This document shows, piece by piece, positions 2,520 to 56,717 of a stretch of 64,000 nt of DNA. The stretch's first letter is position 1; each line of letters opens with the position of its first letter. The DNA is from Dehalococcoidia bacterium (GTDB lineage Bacteria > Chloroflexota > Dehalococcoidia > Lucifugimonadales > Australimonadaceae): assembly GCA_965248495.1 (NCBI GenBank), contig CBDFJL010000003.1:924852-988851 (forward strand), read 5' to 3'. A program made the position numbers and the translations under genes. Below the pieces are notes generated by a model. That model searched no databases and had not been told where the DNA came from. It saw only the letters and a list, made by a program, of their open reading frames with translations.

Positions 2520-2609
2520 TGGCGGAGGGAGTGGGATTCGAACCCACGATGCCCTTGCGGGCATAGCGGTTTTCAAGACCGCCGCATTCGTCCACTCTGC
2601 CATCCCTCC
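2520..2609 (-). tRNA. tRNA-Ser (anticodon UGA), CCA encoded
   Basis: The reverse complement reads GGAGGGATGGCAGAGTGGACGAATGCGGCGGTCTTGAAAACCGC-long variable arm-GTGGGTTCGAATCCCACTCCCTCCGCCA. Anticodon loop is CU-UGA-AA. It has a 7-bp acceptor stem and a long variable arm (class II). Confidence 0.9.
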
Positions 2610-2728
2610 GAGGTTGGCGGTGCAGTCCGCACCGCGGCGGCCATTGTACGGCAGGGGGTGCGGGCGGCTCCCGGCAGACCAACGCAGCGCGTGCTACGCT
2701 CATCGACAGCCACGGATGGAGGCGAGCG

Positions 2729-3013
2729 ATGGCAGCGTTTGGCAAGGTCGAGGTCGAGATTTGCTACTGCGTACCCTGAGGGTACTTCGCGCTCGCCACG
2801 TGGATGGCGACCGAGTTCTGGCGAGGGAATGCGCCTGGCGACGTAGCGATTCGGATTACGCCGTCCGACGGCGGCGACCTGCGGGTCCTGCTCGACGGCG
2901 ACACGATCTACGACCGAGCCGGCGGGGAATACCCCAACCTCACGCAGGTCCTCGAGCTGAACATGGCGATCGCCGACCGCATCGTCCAGCTGGAGAGCGC
3001 CCCGAGCGGCTAG
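2729..3013 (+). CDS. Rdx (SelW/SelT/SelH-like) family predicted selenoprotein, CxxU motif, Sec codon at 2777-2779
   Basis: The track only shows 2804..3013. Reading the same frame upstream from ATG 2729 gives MAAFGKVEVEICYCVP-TGA-GYFALATWMATEFWRGN...GGDLRVLLDGDTIYDRAGGEYPNLTQV. This parallels the Rdx pattern VEIxYCxxC/U...W...G.FEV.vdGelifsk...g.FP. Confidence 0.7.
2793..2810 (+). promoter_or_regulatory. Candidate SECIS-like hairpin for the Rdx gene
   Basis: Stem tcgcc/ggcga with loop ACGUGGAU, starting 13 nt after the UGA. Separately, the UGA itself lies in the loop of the perfect palindrome GTACCC-TGA-GGGTAC (2771-2785). Confidence 0.35.
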
Positions 3014-4110
3014 CCGACCGTCTGCCGCGTCCCCGTCTCCGAGGCGCGAGCAATCGCGTCCAGCAGCCGGTGGTGCGCGACGGCGTCGTCGAAGCTGGGC
3101 GCTGTCGCGACGTCTGAGGCCACCGCGTCGGCGAAGGCCCTCCAGGCCTTGGCGACGTTGACGGCCGACCCCGTCACCTCGGCCTGTGCGAGCCACGGCT
3201 CGTCGTCGATGGCCACTTCGCTTGGCTCCGCGTCGTCCCGTCCCGCCACGAACACCCTGGAGCGTCCTGTGTGTGGGCCCGAGGCACTGCTGTGCTCCAG
3301 CAAGATGGCCCCCTCGCGCCCGTAGACCTCGAACCGATGGCCTCTGCCGTGCCACGGCACCGACTCCACGTGGCAGGTGAGCAGCGGGCCTGCGCGGAAC
3401 CTGCCGACCAGGGCCACGCTGTCCGGCGCGGTGACGGGGACCGTCCTGCCCGTGTCGGTCTCCAGCCACTCCCTCGCCTCGGTGCTCACGTGGGCCTCGA
3501 CCCATTCGAGCTCGCCGACCGTGGTGACGAGTCCATCGATGGCGTGGCCAAACTGAATCGTTAGCGTGTTGGCGCCGGCCGACGGGTCCCCCGCCCACGT
3601 CCGCGACGACGGGCGCTCGGTCAGACCGCCCACGTACTGCGTCATGCTGACCGACACCGGCTCGCCGATGTCGCCCGCGGCGATGGCCTCCCGGACGTAG
3701 CCGAGCTCCGCCGAGCGGCGGCTCTGGAGGCCGACCATCGTGTTGGTACCGGCCTGCTTCGCTGCGGCGGCCATCGCCTCCGCCTCCGCGGTGTCGCGGC
3801 CTAGCGGCCACTCGGTGTAGACGTGCTTCCCGGCTGCCAGCGCCGCCAAGGTCGGCTCCAGGTGGTTCGGAACGCGCAGCGACACGCAGACGGCGGCGAT
3901 GTCGTCGCGCTCCAGCATGGCCCGCCAGTCGTCGAAGGCCAGCTCGGCGCCGAAGCGCTGCCTAGACTCCTCGGCCGACTCCATGCGCGTCGTGCAGACG
4001 GCGGCCAGCGTGACGTCGGGATGGTTCGCCAGTGCCGGCAGGTGCGCCCGTGACGCCCAGCCGGCGTTCGCGTTCGCGCCGATCAGGCCGACGCGCAGAG
4101 GATCGGACAT
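3010..4110 (-). CDS. Gfo/Idh/MocA family oxidoreductase
   Basis: Begins MSDPLRVGLIGANANAGWASRAHLPALANHPDVTLAAVCT and contains the EWPL motif in GKHVYTEWPLGRD. ATG at 4110; the upstream extension is Arg-rich junk. Confidence 0.85.
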   Translation of the reverse strand: MSDPLRVGLIGANANAGWASRAHLPALANHPDVTLAAVCTTRMESAEESRQRFGAELAFDDWRAMLERDDIAAVCVSLRVPNHLEPTLAALAAGKHVYTEWPLGRDTAEAEAMAAAAKQAGTNTMVGLQSRRSAELGYVREAIAAGDIGEPVSVSMTQYVGGLTERPSSRTWAGDPSAGANTLTIQFGHAIDGLVTTVGELEWVEAHVSTEAREWLETDTGRTVPVTAPDSVALVGRFRAGPLLTCHVESVPWHGRGHRFEVYGREGAILLEHSSASGPHTGRSRVFVAGRDDAEPSEVAIDDEPWLAQAEVTGSAVNVAKAWRAFADAVASDVATAPSFDDAVAHHRLLDAIARASETGTRQTVG

Positions 4111-4561: not shown

Positions 4562-4742
4562 GCCCTCGATGCTGACAGCAGAGAAGCCGCGGGAAAACGT
4601 CCGAAAGTACCACCCCATGGGTGGGCCAGGTGTGACATAGGGATGCCGCCGCAACCGTCACGCAGGATTGCGTGCCAGCCCCCCGTAGGATTGCAGGCGC
4701 GCGGCCTTTCTTGGCGTGGGTCGGCCCGCTAGCCTGCGATGC

Positions 4743-6026
4743 ATGGGAGTGCGCCTGGTCGGCCTACTGATGCTCATCGCCGTCGCAATGCTGGTGAGCG
4801 CGTGCGGCAGTTCCTCGGACGGCGTGCGGGTGTCGGTGGCCGAAGCCGCGCTAACCAGCGAGCCGACACCGCCCGCGCCCGCAACGCCGACAGCGACTGC
4901 GAGCCCGATCGCGACCGCAATCGCGACGCCCACCCCCGCGCTGACCCCGGCACCAATCGGCGCGCCGATACCCACGCCGACACCCAAGCAGGCTGGCGAC
5001 GCATCGGCACCTTCGACGCCGACACCTCTCGCGCCAACGCCAACGCAGGCGGCGACGGCGGCGCCTGCGGCGAATCCGACGCCGACGGCCACCATCGCAC
5101 CGCGCTACACGAACGGCGGAGGGGGCGGCTTCGTCGTGCTCGACGACCCCGCGTTCGTCCCCGCCTCGCGGGCCGGCCACGTCGCCGACGGCGACCTCGT
5201 CCTCGGCTACAACGGAGGGGCGCAGGCACGGGCCTACCCGGTGTCGATGATGTGGCTCCATCACATCGTGAACGACACGGTGCTTGGCGATCCGCTGCTC
5301 GTCACCTACTGAATACTCTGTAGATCGGGGGTCGGGTACGACCCCGTGTTGGAGAGTGGCGAGCGGGTCCGCTTCGACCTTCTCGGCCTGTACAAGGGCG
5401 TGTTCCTGATGCGTGACCGTGCCACCGGCTCGGTCTGGGCCCACCTCGACGGCTTCGCGTCCCAGGGCCCGCTGGCAGGGCAGCGCCTCGACTTCGTGTC
5501 CCTGCCGCAGATGACGTGGGGCGAGTGGCGGCAATCGCATCCCGACACGCTGGTGCTCGATGCGAACACGCCGTGGAGCGCCAACTACGGCGACCCCGGC
5601 CAGTTCTCCGATCCGACGCTGGCCAAGTTCGCCGACAATCGTCTGCCCTGGGACGCGCTGGTGGTTGGGGTCGAGGCCAACAGCGCCTACATGGGCTTTC
5701 CGCTCGCCGCGCTGACGGGCGTCGGTGGCTACACCAACACGACGGTGGGTGGCGTGCCCGTGCTCGTGACCTACGACGCTGCAACGCAGACGGGCATCGC
5801 CCACAGCCGCGTCGTCGAAGGCCAGGCGCTGGATTTCTCGTTAGCACCGGGCTTCTTCGGCCGCCTAACCCTCCAGGACGCGCAGACGGGGTCCAAGTGG
5901 GACGCGAGCGGGACGGCCATCGAGGGCCCGCTGAGCGGGACCCAGCTCACCTTCGTCCCGTCCTTCATCTCGGCGTGGTACGGCTGGTCGGCCTACCACC
6001 CGCAGACCGACCTGTTCGACGGCTAA
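4743..6026 (+). CDS. DUF3179 family lipoprotein, predicted selenoprotein (UxxC), Sec codon at 5310-5312
   Basis: Track ORFs 4716..5312 and 5346..6026 share one frame and are separated only by TGA. Read-through gives ...MWLHHIVNDTVLGDPLLVTY-U-ILCRSGVGYDPVLESGERVRFDLLGLYKGVFLMRDRATGSVW.... Lipobox MGVRLVGLLMLIAVAMLVSAC follows ATG 4743, then a PT-rich linker. Confidence 0.75.
5326..5346 (+). promoter_or_regulatory. Candidate SECIS-like hairpin for DUF3179 copy 1
   Basis: Stem GGGGUC/GACCCC (5328-5333 with 5340-5345), loop GGGUAC. The stem begins 15 nt after the UGA. Confidence 0.45.
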
Positions 6027-6550
6027 CCCGGCAGTATCTCGAAGGCGTTGAGCACGCTGGCGATCATCGAGTAGTAGCCGACCGTCGCCGTCAGCTCGAC
6101 GACCCCCACGACGCCGAAGCGCCCCAACGCGGCGTCGAAGGTCGCCTGGCTGACGCGCTTGTCCCGCAGCAGCTCGCGGGCGTAGGCGATGGACGGCCTG
6201 AGCTCGGTCGGCAGCTCGTCGAGCCCGGCCCGCGCGTCGACGAGTGCGATGGTGGCGTCCGGGACACCGAGCCGGGCGGCGATGCCCTTGTGCGCGGCCA
6301 TCTCGTAGGCACACTCCAGCTCGGCGGCCGTCGCCACGATGGTCAGCTCGCGAACGTCGTCCGGCAGCGACGACTCGAGGCGCACGTAGTCGCCAACGCC
6401 GGCGATGCGGCGCGTGAGCTCCGGCACGCTCATTAGCGCGGCGAAGGGCCCGCGCATGGCGCCGCCGCGGGTGGCCGCGATCGCATCGAACGCGGCGTGG
6501 TGCTCGGCGGCGACGCTGTCTCGTTCGGTGATCATGGGTACGCGTGGCAT
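6023..6550 (-). CDS. Carboxymuconolactone decarboxylase (AhpD-like) family protein
   Basis: MPRVPMITERDSVAAEHHAAFDAIAATRGG...TAAELECAYEMAAHKGIAARLG shows the CMD-type E-C-x-x-E-x-x-x-H region. GGGAG lies 7 nt upstream of ATG 6550. Confidence 0.8.
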   Translation of the reverse strand: MPRVPMITERDSVAAEHHAAFDAIAATRGGAMRGPFAALMSVPELTRRIAGVGDYVRLESSLPDDVRELTIVATAAELECAYEMAAHKGIAARLGVPDATIALVDARAGLDELPTELRPSIAYARELLRDKRVSQATFDAALGRFGVVGVVELTATVGYYSMIASVLNAFEILPG

Positions 6551-6659
6551 TGGCTGCTCCCGTGTGCTGGAGTCGGCTGGTGCGCGGCATGATAGACCCG
6601 CTAACGCTCGATGTGGGCGGTGCGCTAGTCTTGGGCCACCGAACGCGGAGGAAGCCGTC

Positions 6660-7769
6660 ATGAAAGAAATCAAGATCGACCGGAGCAAGTCGCTGGTGGA
6701 GGAGCCCGGCAAGGGCCATAACCGATTCCACCCGGATATCGAAGCGGTCATCGAGGTCGACGAGGGCGAGGAGGTCGTCATCGAGACGCGCGCCGCCGCC
6801 GACAATCAGATCACCAGCGCGAGCACCGTCGATGCGCTGAGCGGCACCGACCCCCGACGTCCGCACCCGCTGACCGGCCCCGTGTACGTGAAGGGGGCGT
6901 CGCCGGGCGACCTGCTGGAGATCGAATTCCTCGACATCGTCCCGGCCGACTGGGCCTTCACCGGCATTCGGCCGGGGCGGGGCTACCTGCGGGACCACTT
7001 CCACGATCCGTTCCTCGCGATCTGGGAGCTCCGCGACGGCTGGGCGACGAGCAAGCAGGTGCCGGGGGTGCGCGTGCATGGCGCGCCCTTCACTGGCGTA
7101 TCCGCGGTGGCGCCCTCCCGCGAGCAGCTTGTCGAATGGACGCGTCGCGAGGCGGTGCTGGCGGCCGAGGGTGGGCTGGCCATGCCGCCGGACGCGCGAA
7201 GCGCCGTGCCGTCCGCGGAGCCCATGGCCAGCGAGGGCCTGCGGACCATCCCCCCGCGTGAGAACGGCGGCAACATGGACGTGAAGCAGATGACCAAGGG
7301 GTCGCGGCTGCTGTTGCCGGTCAACGTCGAGGGCGCGCTCTACTCCACCGGCGACGCCCACTTCGCCCAGGGCGACGGCGAGGTGTGCCTCCAAGCGGTG
7401 GAGATGGACGCGACGGTCGCCGTCCGGTTCCGCGTCCTGAAGGGGGAGGCGGAGCGGCACAACATCCGCTGGCCTCGGCTGGCGCACTCGACGTACTTCA
7501 CCGATCCACGCTTCGCCGTCCCCGAGCGCTTCATCGCCACCATGGGCATGCCGATCCGCGCTGACGGCTCCAACGCCAGCGAGGACCTGAACCTCGCCTG
7601 CCAGAACGCACTGCTCCAGATGATCGACCTGCTGGGCGAGCGCGGGTTCAGCCGCGAGCAGGCCTACGTCATCTGCAGCGTGGCGGTGGACCTCAAGATC
7701 AGCCAGGTGGTCGATGTCCCCAACTTCATCGTGAGCGCTGTGCTCTCGGAGGACATCTTCGGCGACTAG
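6660..7769 (+). CDS. Acetamidase/formamidase family protein
   Basis: MKEIKIDRSKSLVEEPGKGHNRFHPDI...HPLTGPVYVKGASPGDLLEIE...GNMDVKQMTKGSRLLLPV...STGDAHFAQGDGEV matches FmdA/AmdA family signatures. GGAGGA RBS is present. Confidence 0.9.
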   Translation: MKEIKIDRSKSLVEEPGKGHNRFHPDIEAVIEVDEGEEVVIETRAAADNQITSASTVDALSGTDPRRPHPLTGPVYVKGASPGDLLEIEFLDIVPADWAFTGIRPGRGYLRDHFHDPFLAIWELRDGWATSKQVPGVRVHGAPFTGVSAVAPSREQLVEWTRREAVLAAEGGLAMPPDARSAVPSAEPMASEGLRTIPPRENGGNMDVKQMTKGSRLLLPVNVEGALYSTGDAHFAQGDGEVCLQAVEMDATVAVRFRVLKGEAERHNIRWPRLAHSTYFTDPRFAVPERFIATMGMPIRADGSNASEDLNLACQNALLQMIDLLGERGFSREQAYVICSVAVDLKISQVVDVPNFIVSAVLSEDIFGD

Positions 7770-15237: not shown

Positions 15238-15975
15238 CTACCGGTGCCGCGGAGACGGCTGGGTGGTCGGGCGGCGATCGCTAGTGAGCACCGCCGGGGG
15301 AGTTGGGAGATCGGGGAATCCAGGCGGGAGAGGTGGTTGACCGCTGGACTCGTCTTCCCCACGGGCATGATCCTCGTTGCTCTCATCATCTGAGTCCGAT
15401 CGCGGCGCGCCCGACTCGTCATCCCCGGTGCCCCCAACGTCACGCTCTCCCCGTTCGTCGTCCTCTTCGTCCTCCTCTCCCTCATCATCATCCTCTGAGT
15501 CGCGCCGCGCCGTGCCGCCGATGATCTCAATGATGGCCGTCTTCTCCTCCTCGATCGCGCCACCGCCCTCTTGATCGAAGGCCGTCACCCGAACGGTCAG
15601 AACCACGGAGCCCACCGCCAGCGCCTCGAAGCGCCATTCAGCTGTTTTCGTCCGTCGGTTGTTAACCGAGCCGAGATGCTTGTCGGCCGGACCACGGAGC
15701 TGGACGAGGCTCGGATCGAACGTCACGGCCGCCACTACCTGTTGGAGGTTTTGCGACGAGATGTTGCGGACCTCCGCGGTGAGCGTGAAACGCTCGCCCA
15801 CGGTCACGGTCGTCGGTTGGGTGTCGAGGCTCACGATCATCGGAAAGACGCGCACCGTCGCTTGCACCGTACCGGTGCCGGTGCCGTGATCTGCCGACGC
15901 GGATGCGAGCGGCACGAGCGCTGCCACCAGCGCCATAGCGCCGATACCAAGCAGCCGTATGGGCCGCGCCCGCAA
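15238..15975 (-). CDS. Secreted hypothetical protein with an acidic low-complexity tail
   Basis: Signal peptide LLGIGAMALVAALVPLASASA, an approximately 130-aa beta-rich domain, then DSEDDDEGEEDEEDDERGERD...DDESNEDHARGEDESS. It is the last gene of a three-gene minus-strand cluster. TTG start. Confidence 0.6.
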   Translation of the reverse strand: MRARPIRLLGIGAMALVAALVPLASASADHGTGTGTVQATVRVFPMIVSLDTQPTTVTVGERFTLTAEVRNISSQNLQQVVAAVTFDPSLVQLRGPADKHLGSVNNRRTKTAEWRFEALAVGSVVLTVRVTAFDQEGGGAIEEEKTAIIEIIGGTARRDSEDDDEGEEDEEDDERGERDVGGTGDDESGAPRSDSDDESNEDHARGEDESSGQPPLPPGFPDLPTPPAVLTSDRRPTTQPSPRHR

Positions 15976-15978
15976 CCG

Positions 15979-16601
15979 CTACTCCCGCTCGCCGCGTTCC
16001 AGGCGGAAGCGAAGACGAACCCGGCCCACTCGGAAGAGCAGGAACGCCGCCAGCGCAGCCGCCAGCAGCCCGATGCCGATATAGGAGAACGGGCTAGTGT
16101 CCTGGAAACGGTGATAAACCCACAACGCCGAGGCGTTGAAGACGTTGGACTGCTCCACGGTGAAGCTGAGCTTCGTGGCTGCCGCGATGCCGACGCTGGC
16201 CCCACCCCCTCTTCCGTCTCGCGCACCGGGAACGCCTCGACAAAGGCGAAGTAGTCTCCAGGGCGCGCCGTCAGTGGCAGCTGGATGCTGACGATGACGC
16301 TCTGCGCCTCGTCCGGCTCTAGGACGAACAGGTCCGGGCTGAAGCGGAACCAGTCCTCGGCCGGCTCCATCTCCGGCTGTCCACTCAGGTAGGTGATGCG
16401 CAGGCTGTAGGTGCCGGGGTCGTGCCCGGTGTTGATGACGCCGATCGATGGCAGGCGATAGGTGCCGCCGGGCGCGATGGGCTCGTCGACCTCGATGCTG
16501 CCGACGTTCACGCCGACACCCTCTTGTGCGAGCGCCGCTCCGGTGATCGCGCCGAGCGCTCCTAGCGCCACGACGAGGGTCATGAAGATTCTCAGTCGCA
16601 T
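15979..16601 (-). pseudogene. Surface/membrane-anchored protein interrupted by a frameshift in a G5 run (C5 on plus strand, 16205-16209)
   Basis: Frame A reads MRLRIFMTLVVALGALGA...GDYFAFVEAFPVRETEEG and then degenerates. The -1 frame continues GGGASVGIAAATKLSFTVEQSNVFNASALWVYHRFQDTSPFSYIGIGLLAAALAAFLLFRVGRVRLRFRLERGERE*, a TM anchor with a basic tail, stopping at 15979-15981. AAGGAG RBS. Confidence 0.6.
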
Positions 16602-16613
16602 CTGCCTACTCCT

Positions 16614-17159
16614 TTACGGGGCCACCGCGACGATGGTCACCGACGCGCCGTGTTCGGCGACGGACGTCGAGTCCGTCGGCATGCTCAAGCGGAAAAAGAC
16701 ATCCTGAGTGCCACTCGTTGCCACGCCGGCCGTCAGCGGGAAAAGGACGTCCGGCGCCGTGAACGCGGTCCAAGATGTGCCGTTGGTGGAGAACTCCCAG
16801 AGCACCTGGTCGGTGTCGCTGGTGGCGCCGAGGAGCCATGTGTCCGTACCGCTGAAGACGCTCGACTTGATGAAGAGGTCCGCGGGGCCCGTGTCCACCT
16901 GCACGGTCTGCACGTCGTTGACACCCGTAGCGGTCGTATCGACGGTGATGCCGAACTCCTGAGAGCCAAAGGGCGTGGTCCCGTCGGTGGTAATGGAGAT
17001 GGCGACCACCGGCGAGCCGGCGGAGATGTCCAGCCAGTAGCGGCCTCCGGTGCCAGTCGGTGGGTTGCCCGTCGTCTGGCAGCCGGCCGCGGCACCCTTG
17101 GCGAAGGAGCACTGCCTCGAAGGCGGCCTTCGGCCTGATGCTGACGACAGCCCTCGCAT
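16614..17159 (-). CDS. Hypothetical secreted-type beta-rich protein; N-terminus uncertain or truncated
   Basis: Contains ...YWLDISAGSPVVAISITTDGTTPFGSQEFGITVDTTATGVNDVQTVQVDTGPADLFIKSS...TWLLGATSDTDQVLWEFSTNGTSW. No signal peptide is present and its 5' region abuts the recombinase remnant. Confidence 0.5.
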   Translation of the reverse strand: MRGLSSASGRRPPSRQCSFAKGAAAGCQTTGNPPTGTGGRYWLDISAGSPVVAISITTDGTTPFGSQEFGITVDTTATGVNDVQTVQVDTGPADLFIKSSVFSGTDTWLLGATSDTDQVLWEFSTNGTSWTAFTAPDVLFPLTAGVATSGTQDVFFRLSMPTDSTSVAEHGASVTIVAVAP

Positions 17160-17390
17160 CCAGCACCGCTAACAGCAGGCGCATTCGCTCGCCAACGTCC
17201 GCCTCCGCCCAGAGCGCAGGCAGGTCCCGCACGAAGCGCGCGACCTCGGCGACCGCATCAGCCCCAGGCCCAACCAGCGAGGCCAGGTCGAACCCCAGCT
17301 GGGCCTTGCGCGAGCGGAGGAGGCAAGGGGCCTGACTGAGGTCTTTCGTCGCCTGAGTGACAGTAGGCAGTCGCGCAATCGTCATCGGTC
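17105..17390 (-). mobile_element. C-terminal remnant of a large serine recombinase (pseudogene fragment)
   Basis: Within the frame of ORF 16606..17685: ...DLASLVGPGADAVAEVARFVRDLPALWAEADVGERMRLLLAVLDARAVVSIRPKAAFEAVL. This matches the typical recombinase tail pattern LxxLWeeAtxeErrxLLxxlldxVyv....aIxPKpaFxxlf. No catalytic N-terminal domain is present. Confidence 0.55.
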
Positions 17391-27261: not shown

Positions 27262-27530
27262 GCGCACTTTCAATAAGTTTCCGCAACGAAGGGAAGTAGT
27301 AGGGGACTCCTCGTCCAAGCGAGCCGGCGGTTGGTGAAAGGCCGGTGGCGTCAGGGCCCCGAACTCGTCCCGGAGCGGCCGACCTGAACGTTTTGAGCGG
27401 CTCAAAGCGTGTAGGGTAGGCGGAGCGCGCCGATACCGCGCCTAACGAAGCGCCTCCCAGCGGGCTGGGGGGAACGAGGGTGGTACCGCGGGCCTGGCCC
27501 GTCCCTTAATTGAGGGGCGGGTTTTTTTGT
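27262..27530 (+). promoter_or_regulatory. T-box leader, probable Leu (CUC) specifier, with intrinsic terminator
   Basis: T-box sequence AACGAGGGTGGTACCGCGG at 27473-27491. Stem I elements include the AGCGA bulge, a GGTGAAAG distal loop, and a specifier loop with AGUAGUA opposite GAA-CUC-G (CUC at 27364-27366). The terminator cccgtccc-ttaattga-ggggcggg plus T7 lies at 27497-27528. Confidence 0.8.
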
Positions 27531-27571
27531 CTGCGGATTAGGGCGGGGTAGATGAGAACGAGGCTGACGAC

Positions 27572-29278
27572 ATGCGGCTAACCGGTGGGCAGATGGTATG
27601 CGAGGCGTTGGTCCGCGAAGGCGTGGACCTCGTGTTCGGCCTGCCCGGCGGCGCTATCCTGCCGCTCTATCAGACGCTGCCAGAGTATCCGCAGATACGG
27701 CACGTCTTGGTTCGCCACGAGCAGAATGCGGGCCACGCGGCGGACGGCTACGCTCGGGCCACCGGCAAGGTCGGCGTCTGCATCGCAACGTCGGGGCCCG
27801 GCGCCACCAACCTCGTGACCCCGCTGGCCACGGCCATGATGGACTCCGTCCCGGTCGTCGCCATCACTGGGCAGGTGCCCCGCGCGGCCATCGGCAGGGA
27901 TGCGTTCCAAGAGGTCGATACCACCGGCATCACGTTGCCCATCACCAAGCACAACTACCTGGTCATGCACGCGTCCGAGTTGCCGCAAGTGCTCAAGGAG
28001 GCGTTCCACATCGCGCGAACGGGGCGGCCCGGGCCGGTGCTCATCGACATCCCCCGCGACGTGCAGGCCGAGCGCGCTGAGTTCGACTACCCGGAGAACG
28101 CCGACATGCGCTCCTACCGGCCGACGCTCGAAGGGCATGCGCAGATGATCAAGCGCGCGGCGCGGCTCATCCGCGAGTCGCAGCGCCCGCTCATTCTTGC
28201 CGGCCACGGCGTCCTGATTTCCGGTGCGTCCGCCGAGCTTCGCGAGCTCGCCGAGAAGGCGCAGGTGCCGGTCATCACAACGCTGCTCGGCATCAGCGCG
28301 TTCGACGAGGGCCACGTGCTCTCGATGGGCATGCCCGGCATGCACGGGATGGCCTATACCAATTGGGCCATCGAGCGCTCCGATCTGCTGATCGCGATCG
28401 GCATGCGATTCGACGACCGGGTCACCGGGCGCATCAGCACCTTTGCGCCCAACGCGAAGGTGGTTCACATAGATGTGGACCCCGCCGAGGTCGGCAAGAA
28501 CGTGCGCGTGACCGTGCCCATCGTCGGGGACGCGAAACGTGTGCTGCATGTGCTCGTCCGCGAGACGGAGCCCGCGACACACCCCGCCTGGCTGCACGAG
28601 ATCGACGAGCTGCGCACCGAGCATCCGTCGGACCGGCTCCGCGAGACCGATAAGCTGTTGCCCCAGCACGTCGTCCGCGAGCTTTCTGACGTCACGCGGG
28701 GCAATGCCATCGTCGTCACCGGCGTGGGCCAGCACCAGATGTGGGCTGCGCAGCACTTCCGCTTCCGCGAGCCCAACAGCTGGCTGACGTCCGGCGGGCT
28801 CGGGACCATGGGTTACGAGGTTCCCGGCGCTATGGGCGCGGCCATGGGCCGACCAGACAAGGTGGTCTGGAGCATCGCCGGTGACGGCGGTTTTCAGATG
28901 ACCATGTCGGAGCTGGCGACGATCGTGGAGAACAAGGTGCCGGTGAAGTTCGTCATCCTGAACAACAACAACCTGGGGCTTGTAAGACAGCTGCAGGATC
29001 TCTTCCACGATGGCTCGCGCGTCGCGTCCGGGTACACGGGAAACCCCGACTTCGTGAAGCTGGCCGAGGCCTACGGTATCTGGAGCACTCGCGTCACCGA
29101 ACGCTCGCAGGTGCGGGACGCCATAGAAGCGGCGATGGCCCACGACGGACCCGCGCTGATCGACTTTAAGGTGGAGCCGGATGAGAACGTCTACCCACAC
29201 GTGCCCGCCGGCGAAAGCGTGGCCGAGATGATCGAGGGGCAGCCGCTGCCCGATGGGGAGGGCGCATGGCAACGATAG
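27572..29278 (+). CDS. ilvB: Acetolactate synthase large subunit
   Basis: ThDP-enzyme motifs are present (GGLGTMGYEVPGAMGA...GDGGFQM...NN), with full-length AHAS-like sequence. Confidence 0.95.
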   Translation: MRLTGGQMVCEALVREGVDLVFGLPGGAILPLYQTLPEYPQIRHVLVRHEQNAGHAADGYARATGKVGVCIATSGPGATNLVTPLATAMMDSVPVVAITGQVPRAAIGRDAFQEVDTTGITLPITKHNYLVMHASELPQVLKEAFHIARTGRPGPVLIDIPRDVQAERAEFDYPENADMRSYRPTLEGHAQMIKRAARLIRESQRPLILAGHGVLISGASAELRELAEKAQVPVITTLLGISAFDEGHVLSMGMPGMHGMAYTNWAIERSDLLIAIGMRFDDRVTGRISTFAPNAKVVHIDVDPAEVGKNVRVTVPIVGDAKRVLHVLVRETEPATHPAWLHEIDELRTEHPSDRLRETDKLLPQHVVRELSDVTRGNAIVVTGVGQHQMWAAQHFRFREPNSWLTSGGLGTMGYEVPGAMGAAMGRPDKVVWSIAGDGGFQMTMSELATIVENKVPVKFVILNNNNLGLVRQLQDLFHDGSRVASGYTGNPDFVKLAEAYGIWSTRVTERSQVRDAIEAAMAHDGPALIDFKVEPDENVYPHVPAGESVAEMIEGQPLPDGEGAWQR

Positions 29279-29838
29279 AAGCCGCACCCGAGACACACAC
29301 CATCACAGCGCTGGTGAATGACCGGCCGGGCGTGCTCACCCGCGTGTCGGGCCTGTTCCGCCGCCGCGGATTCAACATCTCGAGCCTGGCCGTCGGCCAC
29401 AGCGAGGTGCCGAACCTGTCCCGCATGACATTTAATGTCGAGGGCGACGACTACGTCGTGGAGCAGGTGACAAAACAGCTCTACAAGCTCATCGACGTCG
29501 TGCGGGTAAACGACATCTCCTCCGAGAGCATCGTCGGCCGCGAGCTCGCGCTCATCAAGGTCAAGGCGACCGCTCAGACACGGGCCGAGATCATCGAGAT
29601 AGTCGACATTTTCAGAGCGAATATCGTCGACGTCGGTCCCGAGTCCCTGATCATCGAGACGACGGGCGACGAGGAAAAGGTCGACGCGCTATTGCAGCTG
29701 CTCAAGCCCTTTGGCATCCGCGAGATCATGCGCACGGGGCGCGTCGCGATGGCGCGTGGCGCGCCGGCCACGGGAAGCCGTCGCCCGATGGCGCAGCATA
29801 CGGACCAAAGCGCACCGGATACCGAGGTGGTGGAGTAA
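29266..29838 (+). CDS. ilvN: Acetolactate synthase small (regulatory) subunit
   Basis: ACT domain HTITALVNDRPGVLTRVSGLFRRRGFNISSLAVG. It overlaps the ilvB end. Confidence 0.9.
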   Translation: MATIEAAPETHTITALVNDRPGVLTRVSGLFRRRGFNISSLAVGHSEVPNLSRMTFNVEGDDYVVEQVTKQLYKLIDVVRVNDISSESIVGRELALIKVKATAQTRAEIIEIVDIFRANIVDVGPESLIIETTGDEEKVDALLQLLKPFGIREIMRTGRVAMARGAPATGSRRPMAQHTDQSAPDTEVVE

Positions 29839-29907
29839 TGGCGGCCGTAGCACCGTCCGGGCGCGGGCCAACACTCCAGCGCCCTTGATCGCATTGGGGA
29901 GGCATCG

Positions 29908-30903
29908 ATGGCAATCGTCTACTACGAGAAGGACGCCGACATGGGTCGGCTCCACGGCAAGCGCATGGGGATCATGGGTTACGGAAGCCAGGGCCACGCG
30001 CATGCGCTGAACCTGCACGACAATGGCGTCGACGTCGTCGTGGGCCTGTACGAGGGCTCCTCGAGCAGATCGAAAGCGGAGGCCGCGGGCCTAACCGTCG
30101 GTTTGCCGGAGGAGGTGACGAAGGCCGCCGACGTCATCATGGTGCTGGTGCCGGACCACGTGCAGCGCGGGCTCTACGAGAGCGCCATCGAGCCGCACCT
30201 CGATGGGACGAAAACGCTGATGTTCGCTCACGGGTTCAATATCCACTTCGGGGAGATCGTCCCGCCGCCCAACACCGATGTGTCGATGATTGCACCGAAG
30301 GCGCCGGGCCATCGGATGCGCGAGGTCTTCGTCGGCGGGTCCGGCGTGCCGGCGCTCGTCGCCGTCCACCAGGACGCGTCTGGCCAGGCGCTGCCCAATG
30401 CTCTGGCGTACGGCGCGGCCGTCGGCAGCATGCGCGCAGGCATTGTCGCGACGACGTTCAAGGAGGAGACGGAGACGGACCTGTTCGGTGAGCAGTCCGT
30501 CCTATGCGGCGGCACCTCGGCCCTGGTCAAGATGGGCTTCGAGACGCTGGTGGAGGCCGGGTACCAACCGGAGATCGCCTATTTCGAGGTCCTGCACGAG
30601 CTCAAGCTCATCGTGGACCTCATGTACGAGGGCGGGCTGAAGTACATGCGCTATTCGGTGAGTGAGACCGCGGAGTATGGCGACTACTCGCGGGGCTCGC
30701 GGATCGTGGACGAGCACACTCGCGAGAGCATGCGTCAGGTGCTCAAGGAGATACAGGACGGCACCTTCGCCCGGGAGTGGATAGCGGAGAACCACGAGGG
30801 AGGACACAAGTTCAGACAGATGCGCGAGCAGGACGCCAACCACCAGATCGAAGAGGTCGGTGCTCAGCTACGAGAGATGATGAGCTTCCTGCAACAGAAG
30901 TAA
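29908..30903 (+). CDS. ilvC: Ketol-acid reductoisomerase
   Basis: [19 protein letters not shown]...[11 protein letters not shown]. Confidence 0.95.
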
Positions 30904-30938
30904 GGCGCGGCGCCAACGGCGGCGGATGAGGTGACGAG

Positions 30939-32489
30939 ATGGACGACAGGGTACTGATATTCGACACGACGCTGCGCGACGGGGAGCAGTCGGCGGGCAC
31001 CGCCATGACCGTCGACGAGAAGGTTGAGATCGCGCGGCAGCTGGAGCGCCTGGGCGTCGACGTCATCGAGGCGGGCTTCCCGATCAGCTCCAACGGCGAC
31101 TTCGAGGCGGTACAGCGCATCGCGCGGGAGCTTCGAACGCCGATCGTGGCGGCGCTGGCACACGCCAACAACAAGGCCATCGACCGCGCCGGCGAGGCTT
31201 TGAAGGACGCCGCGCATCCGCGCATCCACATCTTCTTGTCCTCGTCCGACAACCATCTCATGAACCAGCTGCGCAAGAACCGCGAGGAGGTCGTCGACAT
31301 GGCGGTTGCCGCGGTAACGCGCGCCCGGACCCACACCGACGACATCGAATTCTCGCCCATGGACTCCAGCCGGACGGACAAGGAGTTCCTGGCGCACTTG
31401 GTACGAGCCGTGGTCGAGGCGGGCGCGACGACCATCAATATCCCCGACACGGTCGGCTACGCGATCCCGGCGGAGTTCGCCGGGCTGATCGAATACCTCC
31501 GCGAGCAGGTGCCCGAGCTGGGCGACAGCGTCCGCATATCGGTGCACTGCCACGACGACCTCGGCATGGCGGTCGCCAACAGCTTGGCCGGGGTCAAAGC
31601 GGGTGCGCGGCAGGTCGAGGGCTGTATCAACGGCATCGGTGAACGCGCGGGCAACTGCGCGTTGGAGGAGGTCATCGTCGCGCTCAGGACGCGTAAGGAC
31701 TACTTCGGCGCGGACACCGGCGTGGACACCACGCAGATCTTTGCGACCAGCCGGCTCGTGAGCCAGATCACCGGCTTCGCGGTCCAGCCAAACAAGGCCG
31801 TGGTCGGCCGCAACGCCTTCCGGCACGCCTCCGGCATCCACCAGGACGGGCTCATCAAGGAGCGGACGACCTACGAGATCATCGATCCGGTCTCCGTCGG
31901 CGTGCCGCGCAGCGAGCTCGTCTTGAGCAAGCTGAGCGGGACTCACGGCCTGCGCGCCCGCCTGGGCGAGCTGGGCTATGTGCCCACGGACGAGGAGATG
32001 GTGCAGGTCTACGCTGAGTTCAAGGACCTTGCGGACAAGAAGCGGGAGGTCATGGACCGAGATCTGGTCGCGTTGATGAGCGGCCGGTCGGTCTCCTTCG
32101 TCGAGACGTACACCCTCGATCGCGTCCAGGTGACCTGTGGCGACCGCGAGGTGGCGACCGCTACCGTGACGCTGTCTGACACCAAGGGCGGGACCTTCAC
32201 CGACGCCTGCACGGGCTCGGGCCCCGTCGATGCCGTCTACAAGGCCATCAACCGCATCGTCGAGGTCCCGAATGAGCTCACCGAGTTCTCGGTGAACTCC
32301 GTCACCGAGGGGATCGACGCCGTTGGCGAAGTGAGCATCCGCATCGAACAGGACGGGCGCACCTACGTTGGCCGCGGCGCGGACACCGACGTTATCGTGG
32401 CGTCGGCGAAGGCTTACATGCACGCGCTGAACCGGCTCCTCGCCATGGGCGACACGACGAAGCGCCCGGAGGCGGCGGGGGCCGTCTAA
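30939..32489 (+). CDS. leuA: 2-isopropylmalate synthase
   Basis: FDTTLRDGEQSAG...HCHDDLGMAVANSLAG, plus the C-terminal LeuA dimerisation/regulatory domain. Confidence 0.95.
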   Translation: MDDRVLIFDTTLRDGEQSAGTAMTVDEKVEIARQLERLGVDVIEAGFPISSNGDFEAVQRIARELRTPIVAALAHANNKAIDRAGEALKDAAHPRIHIFLSSSDNHLMNQLRKNREEVVDMAVAAVTRARTHTDDIEFSPMDSSRTDKEFLAHLVRAVVEAGATTINIPDTVGYAIPAEFAGLIEYLREQVPELGDSVRISVHCHDDLGMAVANSLAGVKAGARQVEGCINGIGERAGNCALEEVIVALRTRKDYFGADTGVDTTQIFATSRLVSQITGFAVQPNKAVVGRNAFRHASGIHQDGLIKERTTYEIIDPVSVGVPRSELVLSKLSGTHGLRARLGELGYVPTDEEMVQVYAEFKDLADKKREVMDRDLVALMSGRSVSFVETYTLDRVQVTCGDREVATATVTLSDTKGGTFTDACTGSGPVDAVYKAINRIVEVPNELTEFSVNSVTEGIDAVGEVSIRIEQDGRTYVGRGADTDVIVASAKAYMHALNRLLAMGDTTKRPEAAGAV

Positions 32490-32573
32490 GCCGGCCGCCG
32501 CTACTAGACGGCTGGTGCCCCGCAATGCAGGGCGCTATCCTACGGCCCCGCTACAGCGAAGAAGGGAGTTCAC

Positions 32574-33992
32574 GTGGCGCCTAAGACCATGTTCGAGAAG
32601 ATTTGGGACGCGCATGTGGTGCGTCAGGAGCCTGATCAGCCCACGCTGCTCTACGTGGACCTGCACTTGGTCCACGAGGTCACGTCGGCACAGGCATTCG
32701 ACGGGCTACGGCAGAATGGCCGCAAGGTCCGCCGCGTGGACAAGACCGTGGCCGTGGCGGACCACAATGTGCCGACGGATGACCGCTCGCACCACGACGT
32801 GGAGATCACCGACGAGACGTCGCGCCTTCAGCTGGAGGCGATGGAGCGGAACACCGGGGAGTTCGGCATCGAGTACTACGACATGTACTCGCCCAACCAG
32901 GGCATCGTCCACGTCATCGCCCCGGAGCAGGGACGCACGCAGCCCGGTATGGTGATCGTCTGCGGCGACAGCCACACGTCAACCCATGGCGCCTTCGGCT
33001 CGCTGGCCTTCGGCATCGGCACGTCGGAGGTGGAGCACGTGCTGGCTACCCAGTGCCTGCTCCAGGCCAAGCCCAAGTCCATGGAGGTGCGCTTCCAGGG
33101 GCCGCTTGCACCCGGCTGCACGGCCAAAGACATGGCGCTGGCCGTCATCGGCACCATCGGCACCGCCGGCGGTACCGGTCACGTGATCGAGTACACGGGC
33201 GAGGCGGTGCGGGCTCTCTCCATGGAGGGCCGCATGACACTGTGCAACATGACCATCGAGGCAGGCGCTCGCGCGGGGATGATCGCGCCCGACCAGACGA
33301 CCTTCGACTACGTGAAGGGCCGCGACTACGCGCCTCGGGGCGCTGAGTGGGACGCTGCGTTGGAGCGCTGGCGCGTACTGCCGACGGACGAGGGCGCCGG
33401 CTACGACGAGTTGGTCACCATCGATGCGTCCGGCCTGAAGCCTCACGTCACTTGGGGCACGAACCCCGGCCAGGTGGTCACCATCGACGGCACGGTGCCC
33501 ACGCCCTCCGGCTTCGCGGACGACCTCCAGCGCCAGTCGGCCGAGAAGGCGTTGGCGTACATGGGCCTGGCGGCTGGAACGCCGATCGCGGAGGTGGCCG
33601 TCAACCGTGTCTTCATCGGCTCGTGTACCAACTCACGCATCGAGGACCTCCGCGCAGCGGCAGCGATTGCCAAGGGCTACCGGGTGCATCCGGATGTCTA
33701 CGCGATGGTCGTCCCCGGCTCGACGAGGATCAAGCTCGAGGCCGAGGCCGAGGGCCTCGACCGGGTGTTCACCGAGGCGGGGTTCGACTGGCGCGCGGCG
33801 GGTTGCTCCATGTGCCTGGGCATGAATCCCGACATCCTGGCCCCTGGCGAGCGGTCGGCTTCCACGTCCAACCGCAACTTCGAGGGGCGCCAGGGACCTG
33901 GTGGGCGCACGCACTTGGTGAGCCCGGCCATGGCGGCCGCGGCGGCTATCGAGGGACACTTCACGGACGTGCGGGACTGGGAGGTACGCTGA
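32574..33992 (+). CDS. leuC: 3-isopropylmalate dehydratase large subunit
   Basis: Aconitase-family motifs [14 protein letters not shown] and [11 protein letters not shown]...[11 protein letters not shown] start. Confidence 0.95.
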
Positions 33993-33994
33993 CC

Positions 33995-34582
33995 ATGGAG
34001 GCATTCACCAAGCACACGGGGATTGCACTGCCCCTGGACCGTATCAACGTCGATACGGACCAGATCATCCCCGCGCGGTTCCTCAAGAAGATCGACCGTG
34101 TCGGCTTTGGCGAGCTGCTCTTCTACGCGTGGCGCTACAAAGCCGATGGCTCCCCCAACGCGGACTTCATCCTGAACGACCCCGACTACGCCGATGCCAC
34201 CGTGCTGTTGGCGGGGGATAACTTCGGCTGCGGCTCGTCACGCGAGCACGCGCCGTGGTCGCTGCAGCAGTATGGCTTCCGCGCAGTGATTGCTCCCTCC
34301 TTCGCAGACATCTTCCGTGGCAACTGCTATCAGAACGGCCTGCTGCCGGTGCAGCTGAGCGCCGACGATGTGGGCTTGCTGATGCGCCGGGCGCAGGACA
34401 CGCCGGGGTACCAGGTGGCGGTGAATCTGGACAACCAGACCGTCACCGACACGGCGGGCTTCGAGACCCACTTCGACATCGACCCGTTCAGACGCGATCG
34501 GCTGCTGCAGGGCCTGGACGATGTCGGTCTGACACTGAGCTACGCGGCGGACATCGCAAAATACGAATCCGCGAACCGGTAG
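33995..34582 (+). CDS. leuD: 3-isopropylmalate dehydratase small subunit
   Basis: MEAFTKHTGIALPLDRINVDTDQIIPARFLK...NFGCGSSREHAPW. ATG 33995 lies 2 nt after the leuC stop. Confidence 0.95.
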   Translation: MEAFTKHTGIALPLDRINVDTDQIIPARFLKKIDRVGFGELLFYAWRYKADGSPNADFILNDPDYADATVLLAGDNFGCGSSREHAPWSLQQYGFRAVIAPSFADIFRGNCYQNGLLPVQLSADDVGLLMRRAQDTPGYQVAVNLDNQTVTDTAGFETHFDIDPFRRDRLLQGLDDVGLTLSYAADIAKYESANR

Positions 34583-34584
34583 CC

Positions 34585-56673: not shown

Positions 56674-56717
56674 CGGATCGCTACCTCTTCGAGTTTAGGA
56701 ACCAAACAGGGCGGGCA

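What the first reader, a model, noticed from the sequence alone, without database searches (positions are those of the whole stretch)
2729..3013. Hidden Rdx/SelW-like selenoprotein (YCVPU) that the ORF track truncates to 69 aa
Extending the 2804..3013 frame upstream gives ATG 2729 and MAAFGKVEVEICYCVP-UGA-GYFALATWMATEFW.... The Rdx family (SelW/SelT/SelH and bacterial homologs) has the N-terminal pattern VEI.YC..C/U followed by an aromatic-rich helix and later G.FEV.vdG..i.sk...g.FP. Here the later block reads GGDLRVLLDGDTIYDRAGGEYP. The UGA falls on the second redox position of CxxU. The UGA also sits in the 3-nt loop of a perfect palindrome, GTACCC-UGA-GGGUAC (2771-2785), and a second small hairpin (loop ACGUGGAU) follows 13 nt later. 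This is the third Sec-type UGA in 64 kb.
Basis: partly seen in the sequence, partly recalled or inferred. Interest (0 to 1): 0.7.

Follow-up and report, generated by a model that had tools for sequence, protein, structure and literature searches.

The report
Mis-annotated SelW-like selenoprotein gene
A small redox-protein gene of the selenoprotein-W (Rdx) family almost certainly reads its in-frame UGA as selenocysteine and is therefore cut short to 69 residues in public annotation; this is a genuine but ordinary member of a bacterial selenoprotein family known since 2005.

Summary
ATG 2729 to TAG 3013 is one 94-codon reading frame, interrupted only by TGA 2777-2779. With that codon read through, the protein passes Pfam's Rdx threshold (36.8 bits against 22.6). 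The annotated 69-aa ORF does not (14.4 bits).

The TGA lies on the second redox position (C-V-P-U). Homologues carry Cys there (CAPC, CVPC, CLQC). All 25 other TGA-form loci whose DNA I read have TGA at this codon, with the upstream frame conserved. These are 21 species-level Dehalococcoidia/Chloroflexota genomes and 4 metagenome contigs.

A hairpin at 2786-2815 (6-bp upper stem, loop CGUGGA, 19 nt after the UGA) meets all four published bacterial SECIS constraints. Across 23 distinct relatives its synonymous sites do not vary, while comparable sites elsewhere in the gene vary freely.

Two DUF3179 genes in the window also have UGA at a CxxC cysteine. TGA ends 9 of 45 genes, so it has not become a general sense codon.

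Not shown: selA, selB, selC and selD could not be looked for, because only the window is available and it contains none of them. The palindrome around the UGA is only partly conserved.

Verdict: a real SelW-like selenoprotein, a new member of a known kind, of low interest.

The parts
2718..2722 (+). Shine-Dalgarno-like GGAGG, 6 nt upstream of the true start codon
   Evidence: Read directly from the sequence. The N-terminus MAAFGKVEVEI aligns with MPGAEFGKVEVEI of the relatives.
2729..3013 (+). Full SelW-like (Rdx family) selenoprotein gene: 94 codons including Sec-17, plus the TAG stop
   Evidence: Translation. Pfam PF10262 36.8 bits, E = 4.7e-9, with the UGA read through. Family profile matches PDB SelW-related proteins. 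46-61% identity to 21 Dehalococcoidia/Chloroflexota loci across the UGA.
2768..2770 (+). TGC, Cys-14: first residue of the CxxU redox motif
   Evidence: Invariant Y-C in all homologues.
2777..2779 (+). In-frame TGA, predicted selenocysteine codon (residue 17, second redox position)
   Evidence: TGA at the homologous codon in 25 of 25 other TGA-form loci. Cys in CAPC/CVPC/CLQC/CVTC homologues. Written as 'W' in 8 of 31 full-length database entries, which I take to be TGA called as Trp; this was confirmed on DNA for one of them.
2771..2785 (+). Perfect palindrome GUACCC-UGA-GGGUAC with the UGA in a 3-nt loop; doubtful part of the signal
   Evidence: Present. Across 24 distinct sequences 80.6% of cells pair, and one pair shows CG/GC/UA types but 9 unpaired cells. 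It largely follows from the V-P-U-G-Y codons.
2786..2815 (+). Predicted bacterial SECIS hairpin inside the coding sequence: lower stem 2786-2789/2812-2815, G2791-C2811, upper stem 2793-2798/2805-2810, apical loop CGUGGA 2799-2804
   Evidence: MFE structure at -11.7 kcal/mol, 19 nt spacing from the UGA, 6-bp upper stem, 6-nt loop with G at position 2 followed by U. All published bSECIS constraints are met (PMC13188914). Synonymous sites do not vary in 23 relatives. 89.9% of cells pair, with compensatory changes at two pairs.
2804..3013 (+). The 69-aa ORF as called in public annotation (P0001): a truncation artefact
   Evidence: P0001 is identical to this ORF and lies on a 2,642,258-bp NCBI/ENA contig. 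It scores only 14.4 bits against Rdx and lacks strand beta-1 and the redox motif.

Best explanation
Positions 2729-3013 (+) encode a 94-residue SelW-like (Rdx family) thiol/selenol oxidoreductase. Its active site is Cys14-Val-Pro-Sec17.

**How the UGA is read.** While translating, the ribosome reaches UGA 2777-2779. The hairpin 2786-2815 lies in the next codons (L-A-T-W-M-A-T). Its apical loop CGUGGA is supplied partly by the conserved Trp codon. The hairpin acts as a bacterial SECIS: it recruits SelB.GTP.Sec-tRNA(Sec), so selenocysteine is inserted instead of translation terminating.

**What the protein is.** It adopts the thioredoxin-like beta1-alpha1-beta2-beta3-beta4-alpha2 Rdx fold. The CxxU motif sits between beta1 and alpha1 and cycles between selenol/thiol and selenenylsulfide. 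Its physiological partner is unknown.

**What is shown.** The frame, the family membership, the Cys/Sec pairing, conservation of the TGA, and conservation of the hairpin with constraint on synonymous sites.

**What is inferred.** That SelB and tRNA(Sec) exist in this genome, that selenium is actually incorporated, and the redox chemistry.

**Host.** The organism is a Dehalococcoidia-type Chloroflexota bacterium.
For: **Protein family**
- Pfam Rdx passes its threshold only with read-through.
- A profile of the family matches solved bacterial SelW-related proteins 2fa8, 2obk, 2p0g, 2oka, 3dex and 2ojl at E = 1e-13 to 1e-15. It also matches mouse SelW (2npb).
- The AlphaFold2 model of the closest Cys form, P0033 (53% identical), has pLDDT 86.7 and the Rdx topology, with CxxC between beta1 and alpha1. 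It superposes on those structures at TM 0.83-0.88 and 1.5 A.

**Recoding**
- All 21 genome loci from distinct species and all 4 metagenome loci have TGA at the same codon. The upstream frame K-V-E-V-E-I-x-Y-C is conserved and shows synonymous variation, which indicates selection on the protein.
- Cys forms exist.
- Of 290 family members in the protein database, most of the 120 listed are 62-76 aa truncations. Some are named 'predicted Rdx family selenoprotein'.

**SECIS**
- The window hairpin meets all the bSECIS constraints. So do 20 of the 26 sequences; the other six miss only the position of the loop G.
- Codons +5 to +10 after the UGA do not vary at synonymous sites: Val GTC 17/18, Ala GCC 23/23, codon +7 always NNG, Ala GCG 23/23.
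- Other invariant Ala, Gly, Val and Leu columns carry 1.3-1.9 bits of third-base entropy. Overall, 49% of four-fold sites differ between pairs of sequences.
- L002 swaps GCC...GCG to GCG...GCC and keeps both pairs.

**Organism**
- Two more genes in the window (DUF3179) carry UGA at a CxxC cysteine, each followed by a SECIS-like hairpin.
- TGA ends 9 of 45 genes, so it is not a general sense codon.
- The nearest named relatives of the window's RF1 are all Dehalococcoidia, SAR202 or Chloroflexota.
- Dehalococcoidia MAGs with 46-49 selenoproteins are on record (PMC13326102).
- SELENOW-like/PF10262/CxxU and DUF3179 are both listed prokaryotic selenoprotein families (PMC13188914, PMC9312934, PMC1088965).
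Against: - No selA, selB, selD or tRNA-Sec is present in the 64-kb window or in the roughly 400 kb of related loci I held. The machinery is inferred, not seen.
- On the window sequence alone the hairpin is no more stable than shuffled or synonymously resampled sequence.
- One Cys-form lineage (L033-L035, CAPC) also keeps a 6-bp helix at the same place, through a compensatory C-G to G-C change, although it loses the loop G. The helix is therefore not strictly specific to Sec forms. It may be a relic there, or partly a by-product of the A-T-W-M-A codons.
- NCBIfam TIGR02174 and NF041051 score below their curated cutoffs (26.8 against 34.2; 30.3 against 88). This is a divergent member.
- No Rfam SECIS model matches.
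- There is no expression or selenium-incorporation data.
Confidence: 0.9

Rival explanations
1. The UGA is decoded, but not as selenocysteine. It could be read as Cys by a tRNA(Sec)-like tRNA, or as Trp by near-cognate read-through. The protein would then be a CxxC or CxxW Rdx protein.
For: The tools cannot tell which amino acid is inserted. No Sec machinery was seen in the window. Database entries show W at this position. Cys-for-Sec recoding systems are described in the literature; this rests on my own knowledge and was not checked here.
Against: The W entries are best explained as gene-caller output, because the one checked on DNA has TGA. The position is the redox Cys/Sec site of a family with documented Sec forms (PMC1088965, PMC13188914). 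A hairpin meeting the bSECIS constraints is conserved. The lineage is known to be rich in selenoproteins (PMC13326102).
Confidence: 0.05
2. It is a pseudogene: a TGC/TGT Cys codon mutated to TGA, so the gene is broken in this genome.
For: A single base change turns TGC or TGT into TGA. Public annotation treats the upstream part as non-coding.
Against: TGA is at the same codon in 25 of 25 other TGA-form loci, from at least 21 species with 46-61% protein identity. Both flanks are under protein-level selection. An independent nonsense mutation fixed in all of them is not credible.
Confidence: 0.02
3. The real gene is the 69-aa ORF from ATG 2804, as annotated, and the upstream frame is a coincidence.
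For: Gene callers choose this start in this genome and in dozens of relatives.
Against: The 69-aa product lacks beta1 and the redox motif and falls below the Rdx threshold. The 16 upstream codons are conserved at the amino-acid level with synonymous variation. GGAGG precedes ATG 2729, not ATG 2804. In several relatives the equivalent Met is absent (for example W-L-A or W-V-A), yet the frame is kept.
Confidence: 0.02

Closest known systems
Bacterial SelW-like / Rdx family (seleno)proteins (PF10262; for example PDB 2fa8 Atu0228, 2p0g Vibrio cholerae, 2obk Pseudomonas fluorescens). Sec forms have been described since the Sargasso Sea analysis (PMC1088965).
   Same: Same domain (Pfam hit above threshold). 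Same CxxC/U motif between beta1 and alpha1. Same fold in the closest Cys homologue. Same solution of an in-frame UGA followed by a downstream hairpin.
   Different: A divergent branch. It scores below the NCBIfam TIGR02174 and NF041051 cutoffs and is about 28-31% identical to the solved structures. It has a longer C-terminal helix. The branch is largely confined to Dehalococcoidia/SAR202/Chloroflexota by the names recovered.
Mammalian selenoprotein W (SELENOW; PDB 2npb)
   Same: CxxU motif at the same structural position, and the same Rdx fold. The profile matches at E = 3.7e-4 and Foldseek at E = 3.8e-4, TM 0.65-0.71.
   Different: The eukaryotic gene uses a 3'-UTR SECIS with SBP2/eEFSec. Here the element lies inside the coding sequence directly after the UGA, as in bacteria. 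Sequence identity is about 14%.
Bacterial SECIS consensus model (bSECISearch model as summarised in PMC13188914; prototype E. coli fdhF)
   Same: 3-9 nt apical loop (6 here). 4-16 bp upper stem (6 here). G in the first two loop positions followed by G or U (C-G-U here). 16-37 nt spacing from the UGA (19 here). MFE at or below -7.5 kcal/mol (-11.7 here).
   Different: No sequence resemblance to fdhF, and no Rfam model matches. The loop's G-U-G-G is built from the last base of codon +7 plus the conserved Trp codon, so RNA and protein constraints are interleaved.
DUF3179 (PF11376) UxxC selenoproteins
   Same: Two are encoded in the same window, each with UGA at the first Cys of CxxC and a hairpin 19-22 nt downstream. 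This is independent evidence that the host decodes UGA as Sec.
   Different: An unrelated protein family with an unrelated hairpin sequence.

Membership tests
Rdx / SelW-like family (Pfam PF10262) | Match to the family HMM above the curated gathering score | tested here: met
   36.8 bits against a cutoff of 22.6, E = 4.7e-9, residues 8-76 on profile 1-70/74, with U replaced by C.
Rdx / SelW-like family (Pfam PF10262) | CxxC or CxxU redox motif directly after the first beta strand | tested here: met
   C14-V-P-U17 follows VEVEICY. It aligns to CAPC/CVPC/CLQC of the homologues. In the model of P0033 the motif lies between E9-16 and H22-34.
Rdx / SelW-like family (Pfam PF10262) | Thioredoxin-like beta1-alpha1-beta2-beta3-beta4-alpha2 fold | tested here: met
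   Tested on the closest Cys homologue P0033 (53% identical), not on the window protein itself, which the tool would not accept. pLDDT 86.7 with the expected order of elements. Foldseek TM 0.83-0.88 and rmsd 1.5 A to 2obk, 2p0g and 2fa8.
NCBIfam TIGR02174 (CXXU_selWTH) and NF041051 (SelTWH_Campy) | Score above the curated cutoff of the model | tested here: not met
   26.8 against 34.2, and 30.3 against 88. These are the best hits but are sub-threshold, so I do not file the protein under these narrower models.
Bacterial selenoprotein gene | In-frame UGA aligned to a conserved Cys in homologues (Cys/Sec pair) | tested here: met
   Cys in P0004, P0007, P0012, P0013, P0015, P0029, P0033 and others at the UGA column. 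TGC or TGT was confirmed on DNA in L027, L028, L030, L031 and L033-35.
Bacterial selenoprotein gene | TGA-containing orthologues in other organisms with the frame conserved on both sides | tested here: met
   21 of 21 genome loci and 4 of 4 distinct metagenome loci.
Bacterial selenoprotein gene | bSECIS stem-loop directly downstream of the UGA that meets the consensus constraints | tested here: met
   Loop of 6 nt (CGUGGA), upper stem of 6 bp, spacing of 19 nt, -11.7 kcal/mol (constraints from PMC13188914). Synonymous sites in the hairpin do not vary across 23 sequences. Compensatory changes occur at two pairs.
Bacterial selenoprotein gene | Sec machinery (selA, selB, selC/tRNA-Sec, selD) in the same genome | not testable with these tools
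   Only the 64-kb window is available. It contains none of these genes (tblastn). The genome is not among the species representatives searched. Indirect support: two further Sec-type UGA genes in the window, and selenoprotein-rich Dehalococcoidia in the literature (PMC13326102).
Bacterial selenoprotein gene | Selenium actually incorporated at the UGA position | not testable with these tools
   Needs 75Se labelling or mass spectrometry.

The most novel reading that the evidence does not exclude
The coding-region hairpin may do more than recruit SelB. Its synonymous sites do not vary across the whole clade. A Cys-form lineage keeps the helix through a compensatory change even though it no longer needs a SECIS. 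In many members the UGA itself sits in the 3-nt loop of a second mini-hairpin. Together these could mark a clade-specific two-hairpin recoding or translation-pausing signal, or decoding of the UGA by something other than canonical Sec-tRNA(Sec) in these Chloroflexota.
Probability: 0.06. Interest if true: 0.5.

Novelty: new member of a known kind. Interest (0 to 1): 0.2.

Why it matters
Its main value is as an annotation correction. The public record for this genome, and for dozens of related Chloroflexota, lists a 62-76-aa fragment that lacks the active site. The real product is a 94-residue CxxU selenoprotein.

With the two DUF3179 genes, the window indicates that its host is a selenocysteine user. 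That matters for gene calling across the rest of the genome.

The clade-wide invariance of synonymous sites gives a clean, alignable bacterial SECIS for this branch of the Rdx family. It could be turned into a covariance model to find further members.

It does not open a new biological question. SelW-like CxxU selenoproteins have been catalogued in bacteria since 2005, and their function remains as unknown as before.

Tried and rejected
- **Rfam.** The whole window at gathering thresholds, and 2650-3100 at E up to 10, gave no SECIS family, only a chance lncRNA hit.
- **Single-sequence folding.** z-scores were -0.4 and 0.0, which is uninformative in 67% GC sequence.
- **Synonymous resampling of the window alone.** p of about 0.12-0.17, not significant.
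- **First word-based protein search.** It found only the identical truncated ORF.
- **Restricted tools.** I used the 77 post-UGA residues for the sensitive search, and the closest Cys homologue for the structure.
- **The search for related loci.** The 11- and 5-sequence alignments failed for lack of a conserved stretch. A 2-sequence alignment worked.
- **P0001 look-ups.** It is not on record in the contig index and carries no name or accession. The organism was therefore inferred from named relatives of the window's RF1.
- **Search for Sec machinery.** I ran ARAGORN on the window and 23 loci. Nothing was found.
- **Synteny as a clue to function.** Nineteen relatives share MaoC-MaoC-Rdx-pentapeptide-DRTGG/AAA_26, but the window copy lies elsewhere, so no inference was possible.
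- **Cys forms as a negative control for the hairpin.** Four lineages lack the helix and one keeps it, so the control is suggestive rather than decisive.
- **General reassignment of UGA (code 4 or 25).** Rejected, because 9 of 45 genes end in TGA with no coding signal beyond it.
- **tRNA-Ser(UGA anticodon) at 2520-2609.** It reads UCA codons and has nothing to do with Sec.

Full report
**1. The observation**

- ATG 2729 opens a frame reading MAAFGKVEVEICYCVP, then TGA (2777-2779), then GYFALATWMATEFWRGNAPGDVAIRITPSDGGDLRVLLDGDTIYDRAGGEYPNLTQVLELNMAIADRIVQLESAPSG, ending at TAG 3011-3013.
- GGAGG (2718-2722) lies 6 nt before ATG 2729. No such site precedes ATG 2804.
- The palindrome GTACCC-TGA-GGGTAC (2771-2785) is exact.
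- A hairpin follows it. The upper stem is UCGCCA 2793-2798 with UGGCGA 2805-2810, the loop is CGUGGA 2799-2804, and the lower stem is 2786-2789 with 2812-2815.
- Public annotation holds only the 69-aa ORF 2804-3013. This is P0001, on a 2,642,258-bp NCBI/ENA contig.

**2. Protein family**

- With the UGA replaced by Cys, the 94-aa product matches Pfam Rdx (PF10262) at 36.8 bits (cutoff 22.6), E = 4.7e-9. The match covers residues 8-76 on profile positions 1-70 of 74. The 69-aa ORF alone reaches 14.4 bits.
- The narrower NCBIfam models TIGR02174 and NF041051 are the best hits but fall below their cutoffs. This is a divergent branch.
- A profile of 31 full-length relatives matches solved bacterial SelW-related proteins (2fa8, 2obk, 2p0g, 2oka, 3dex, 2ojl; E = 1e-13 to 1e-15). 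It also matches mouse SelW (2npb) and MIEN1.
- The tools would not accept the read-through protein. I therefore modelled the closest Cys form, P0033, which is 53% identical and has the motif CAPC.
- That model has pLDDT 86.7 and the topology beta1(9-16)-CxxC-alpha1(22-34)-beta2-beta3-beta4-alpha2. It superposes on the solved SelW-related proteins at TM 0.83-0.88 and 1.5 A.

**3. Is the UGA a sense codon here?**

A sensitive search with the 77 post-UGA residues found 20 relatives, of three kinds:
- full-length Cys forms with CLQC, CVTC or CVPC;
- full-length forms with W at that position;
- forms of 51-75 aa, most of which begin at a Met just after it.

The DNA of four of these (L001, L002/L003, L004, L005) shows an in-frame TGA at exactly this codon. 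It is preceded by a conserved frame, a start codon and, in the W form, TGA rather than TGG.

A scan of species-representative genomes returned 21 loci, all Dehalococcoidia or Chloroflexota MAGs, 46-61% identical to the window protein. All 21 have TGA at the same codon within ...GKVEVEIvYC[VSL][PSA]-TGA-[GA][YH]....

The upstream codons keep their amino acids while varying synonymously (K AAG/AAA, V with four codons, E GAG/GAA). That is the signature of protein-level selection upstream of the 'stop'.

A profile search found 290 family members. Most of the 120 listed are 62-76-aa truncations. Several are named 'Rdx family protein [Chloroflexi/Dehalococcoidia bacterium]', 'SAR202 cluster bacterium' or 'predicted Rdx family selenoprotein'. 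Of the 31 full-length entries aligned, 8 have W at the Sec column.

The closest Cys forms, P0029 and P0033 (CAPC), are 51-53% identical, and their DNA has TGC.

These results exclude both a pseudogene and a true start at Met-26.

**4. The RNA element**

Rfam has nothing for it. On the window alone its stability is unremarkable.

Measured against the published bacterial SECIS model, the window hairpin passes every constraint. The model requires a 3-9 nt loop, a 4-16 bp upper stem, G in the first two loop positions, 16-37 nt from the UGA, and MFE at or below -7.5 kcal/mol (PMC13188914). The window values are 6 nt (C-G-U-G-G-A), 6 bp, 19 nt and -11.7 kcal/mol.

Twenty of the 26 sequences pass every constraint. 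The other six have a U.U closing mismatch, which shifts the loop G to position 3.

The strongest evidence comes from synonymous sites. Among 23 distinct coding sequences, 49% of four-fold sites differ between pairs.
- Val +5 is GTC in 17 of 18.
- Ala +6 is GCC in 23 of 23.
- Codon +7 is always NNG, whatever the amino acid (ACG, ATG or TCG).
- Ala +10 is GCG in 23 of 23.
- For comparison, other invariant columns vary widely: Ala +23 is 5/10/4/2, Ala +76 is 11/7/2/3, Gly +20 is 8/9/1/5, and Leu +56 is 12/3/1/7.

The helix pairs in 89.9% of cells, against 27-57% when the partner column is slid by 1-3 positions. Two pairs show changes on both sides. L002 has GCG...GCC where the others have GCC...GCG, and AUC in place of AUG, which restores both pairs. 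Two distant Sec forms (L004, L005) use a helix shifted by about 2 nt, with loop UGGAU.

There is a caveat. One Cys-form lineage (L033-35), which has the identical peptide LATWMATEFW, also keeps a 6-bp helix (UGGCCA/UGGCCA). Its loop G is replaced by C. Four other Cys lineages do not keep the helix. By codon usage I estimate such a helix arises by chance about 18% of the time; this follows from the frequencies. The Cys control is therefore suggestive only.

The palindrome around the UGA pairs in 80.6% of cells, with some CG/GC/UA variation at one pair and many mismatches. I treat it as largely a consequence of the V-P-U-G-Y codons.

**5. Does the host use selenocysteine?**

This could not be tested directly. 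The window holds one tRNA, tRNA-Ser with anticodon UGA, which reads UCA codons. None of about 60 ORFs scanned is selA, selB or selD. tblastn with E. coli SelA, SelB and SelD found nothing in the window or the related loci, and no tRNA-Sec lies in those loci.

The indirect evidence is good.
- Two DUF3179 genes in the window (4716-6026 +, 56718-57803 -) carry an in-frame TGA on the first Cys of CxxC. The Pfam match runs across the TGA (E = 4e-58 and 4e-88). Hairpins with loops GGUA and UGGUCUU lie 22 and 19 nt downstream, at -16 and -15 kcal/mol.
- DUF3179 and SELENOW-like/PF10262/CxxU are both catalogued prokaryotic selenoprotein families (PMC9312934, PMC13188914, PMC1088965).
- TGA ends 9 of 45 genes, with no coding signal beyond it, so it has not been reassigned in general.
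- The window's RF1 lies on the same 2.64-Mb contig, and its named relatives (60-72% identical) are all Dehalococcoidia, SAR202 or Chloroflexota. Dehalococcoidia MAGs with 46-49 selenoproteins are on record (PMC13326102).

**6. Mechanism**

- Shown: the frame, the family membership, the Cys/Sec pairing, conservation of the TGA, and constraint on the hairpin.
- Inferred from established knowledge of bacterial Sec insertion: SelB.GTP.Sec-tRNA(Sec) binds the hairpin at 2786-2815 as the ribosome reaches UGA 2777 and inserts Sec-17. The product is a small thioredoxin-fold oxidoreductase whose Cys14/Sec17 pair cycles through a selenenylsulfide.
- Unknown: the substrate. Gene context does not help. 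Nineteen relatives share a MaoC-MaoC-Rdx-pentapeptide-DRTGG/AAA_26 arrangement, but the window copy sits between tRNA-Ser and a convergent Gfo/Idh/MocA gene.

**7. Verdict**

This is a genuine SelW-like selenoprotein gene that standard annotation truncates. It is a new member of a known kind, not a new kind. Interest is low (0.2).

The least ordinary reading the evidence leaves open has a probability of about 0.06. It is that the invariant hairpin, which persists in one Cys lineage, and the mini-hairpin that holds the UGA have a role beyond canonical SelB recruitment.

Noticed in passing
window 4716-6026 (+), TGA 5310-5312; window 56718-57803 (-), TGA 57455-57453: Two DUF3179 (PF11376) genes each carry an in-frame TGA on the first Cys of CxxC (LLVTY-U-ILC and VMVTW-U-PLC). 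The Pfam match spans the TGA, and a SECIS-like hairpin follows (loops GGUA and UGGUCUU, 22 and 19 nt after the UGA, -16 and -15 kcal/mol). DUF3179 is a listed UxxC selenoprotein family. The second gene is followed by an AhpC/TSA-redoxin gene (56089-56694, -). The first lies next to a CMD/AhpD-like gene (6026-6805, -).
   Followed up: partly
whole window (45 Pfam-supported genes): Stop codon usage is TAG 24, TAA 12, TGA 9. From my own knowledge of GC-rich genomes, which was not checked here, TGA is unexpectedly rare and TAG unexpectedly dominant for a 67% GC genome. Whether this is a lineage habit or is linked to heavy Sec use was not examined.
   Followed up: partly
window 3010-3013: The Rdx gene's stop (TAG 3011-3013) and the stop of the convergent Gfo/Idh/MocA gene (minus strand, 3012-3010) overlap within the palindrome CTAG. 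The two genes therefore share no intergenic spacer or terminator.
   Followed up: no
L006-L026, about 1.1 kb upstream to 2.2 kb downstream of the Rdx gene (e.g. L011 8992-12224): In 19 related Dehalococcoidia genomes the Rdx selenoprotein gene sits in a conserved same-strand cluster: two MaoC-like hot-dog genes, Rdx, a pentapeptide-repeat protein, and a DRTGG/AAA_26 protein. The window copy is not in this context, so it may be a relocated copy or a paralogue.
   Followed up: partly
L033/L034 5001-5300, L035 72-374: The closest Cys-form relatives (CAPC, with the identical peptide LATWMATEFW) keep a 6-bp helix at the SECIS position through a compensatory C-G to G-C change. They replace the loop G with C (CCUGGA). 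This could be a relic of a recent Sec-to-Cys conversion, or chance.
   Followed up: partly
window 27277-27509 (+): A T-box leader (Rfam RF00230, 93.1 bits, right at the gathering score of 93) lies directly upstream of an acetolactate-synthase-like TPP enzyme and the ilv/leu genes (27542-35688).
   Followed up: no
window 2520-2609 (-): tRNA-Ser with anticodon UGA lies 120 nt upstream of the Rdx gene and is divergent from it. It reads UCA codons and is not tRNA-Sec, but the anticodon spelling could be misread.
   Followed up: yes
window 16462-17035 (+), TGAs at 16705 and 16960: Consecutive same-frame ORFs with high GC3 are separated by TGA codons. There is no Pfam hit on either strand. This may be an antisense artefact of minus-strand ORFs (15837-17168) and remains unresolved.
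   Followed up: partly
protein database entries P0005, P0018, P0023, P0026, P0035, P0036, P0038, P0040, P0041, P0043: Ten full-length family entries show W at the Sec position. For the one checked (P0005, locus L004) the DNA has TGA, so the caller appears to have used a TGA=Trp code on short contigs. This is a systematic way in which selenoproteins enter databases as Trp proteins.
   Followed up: partly
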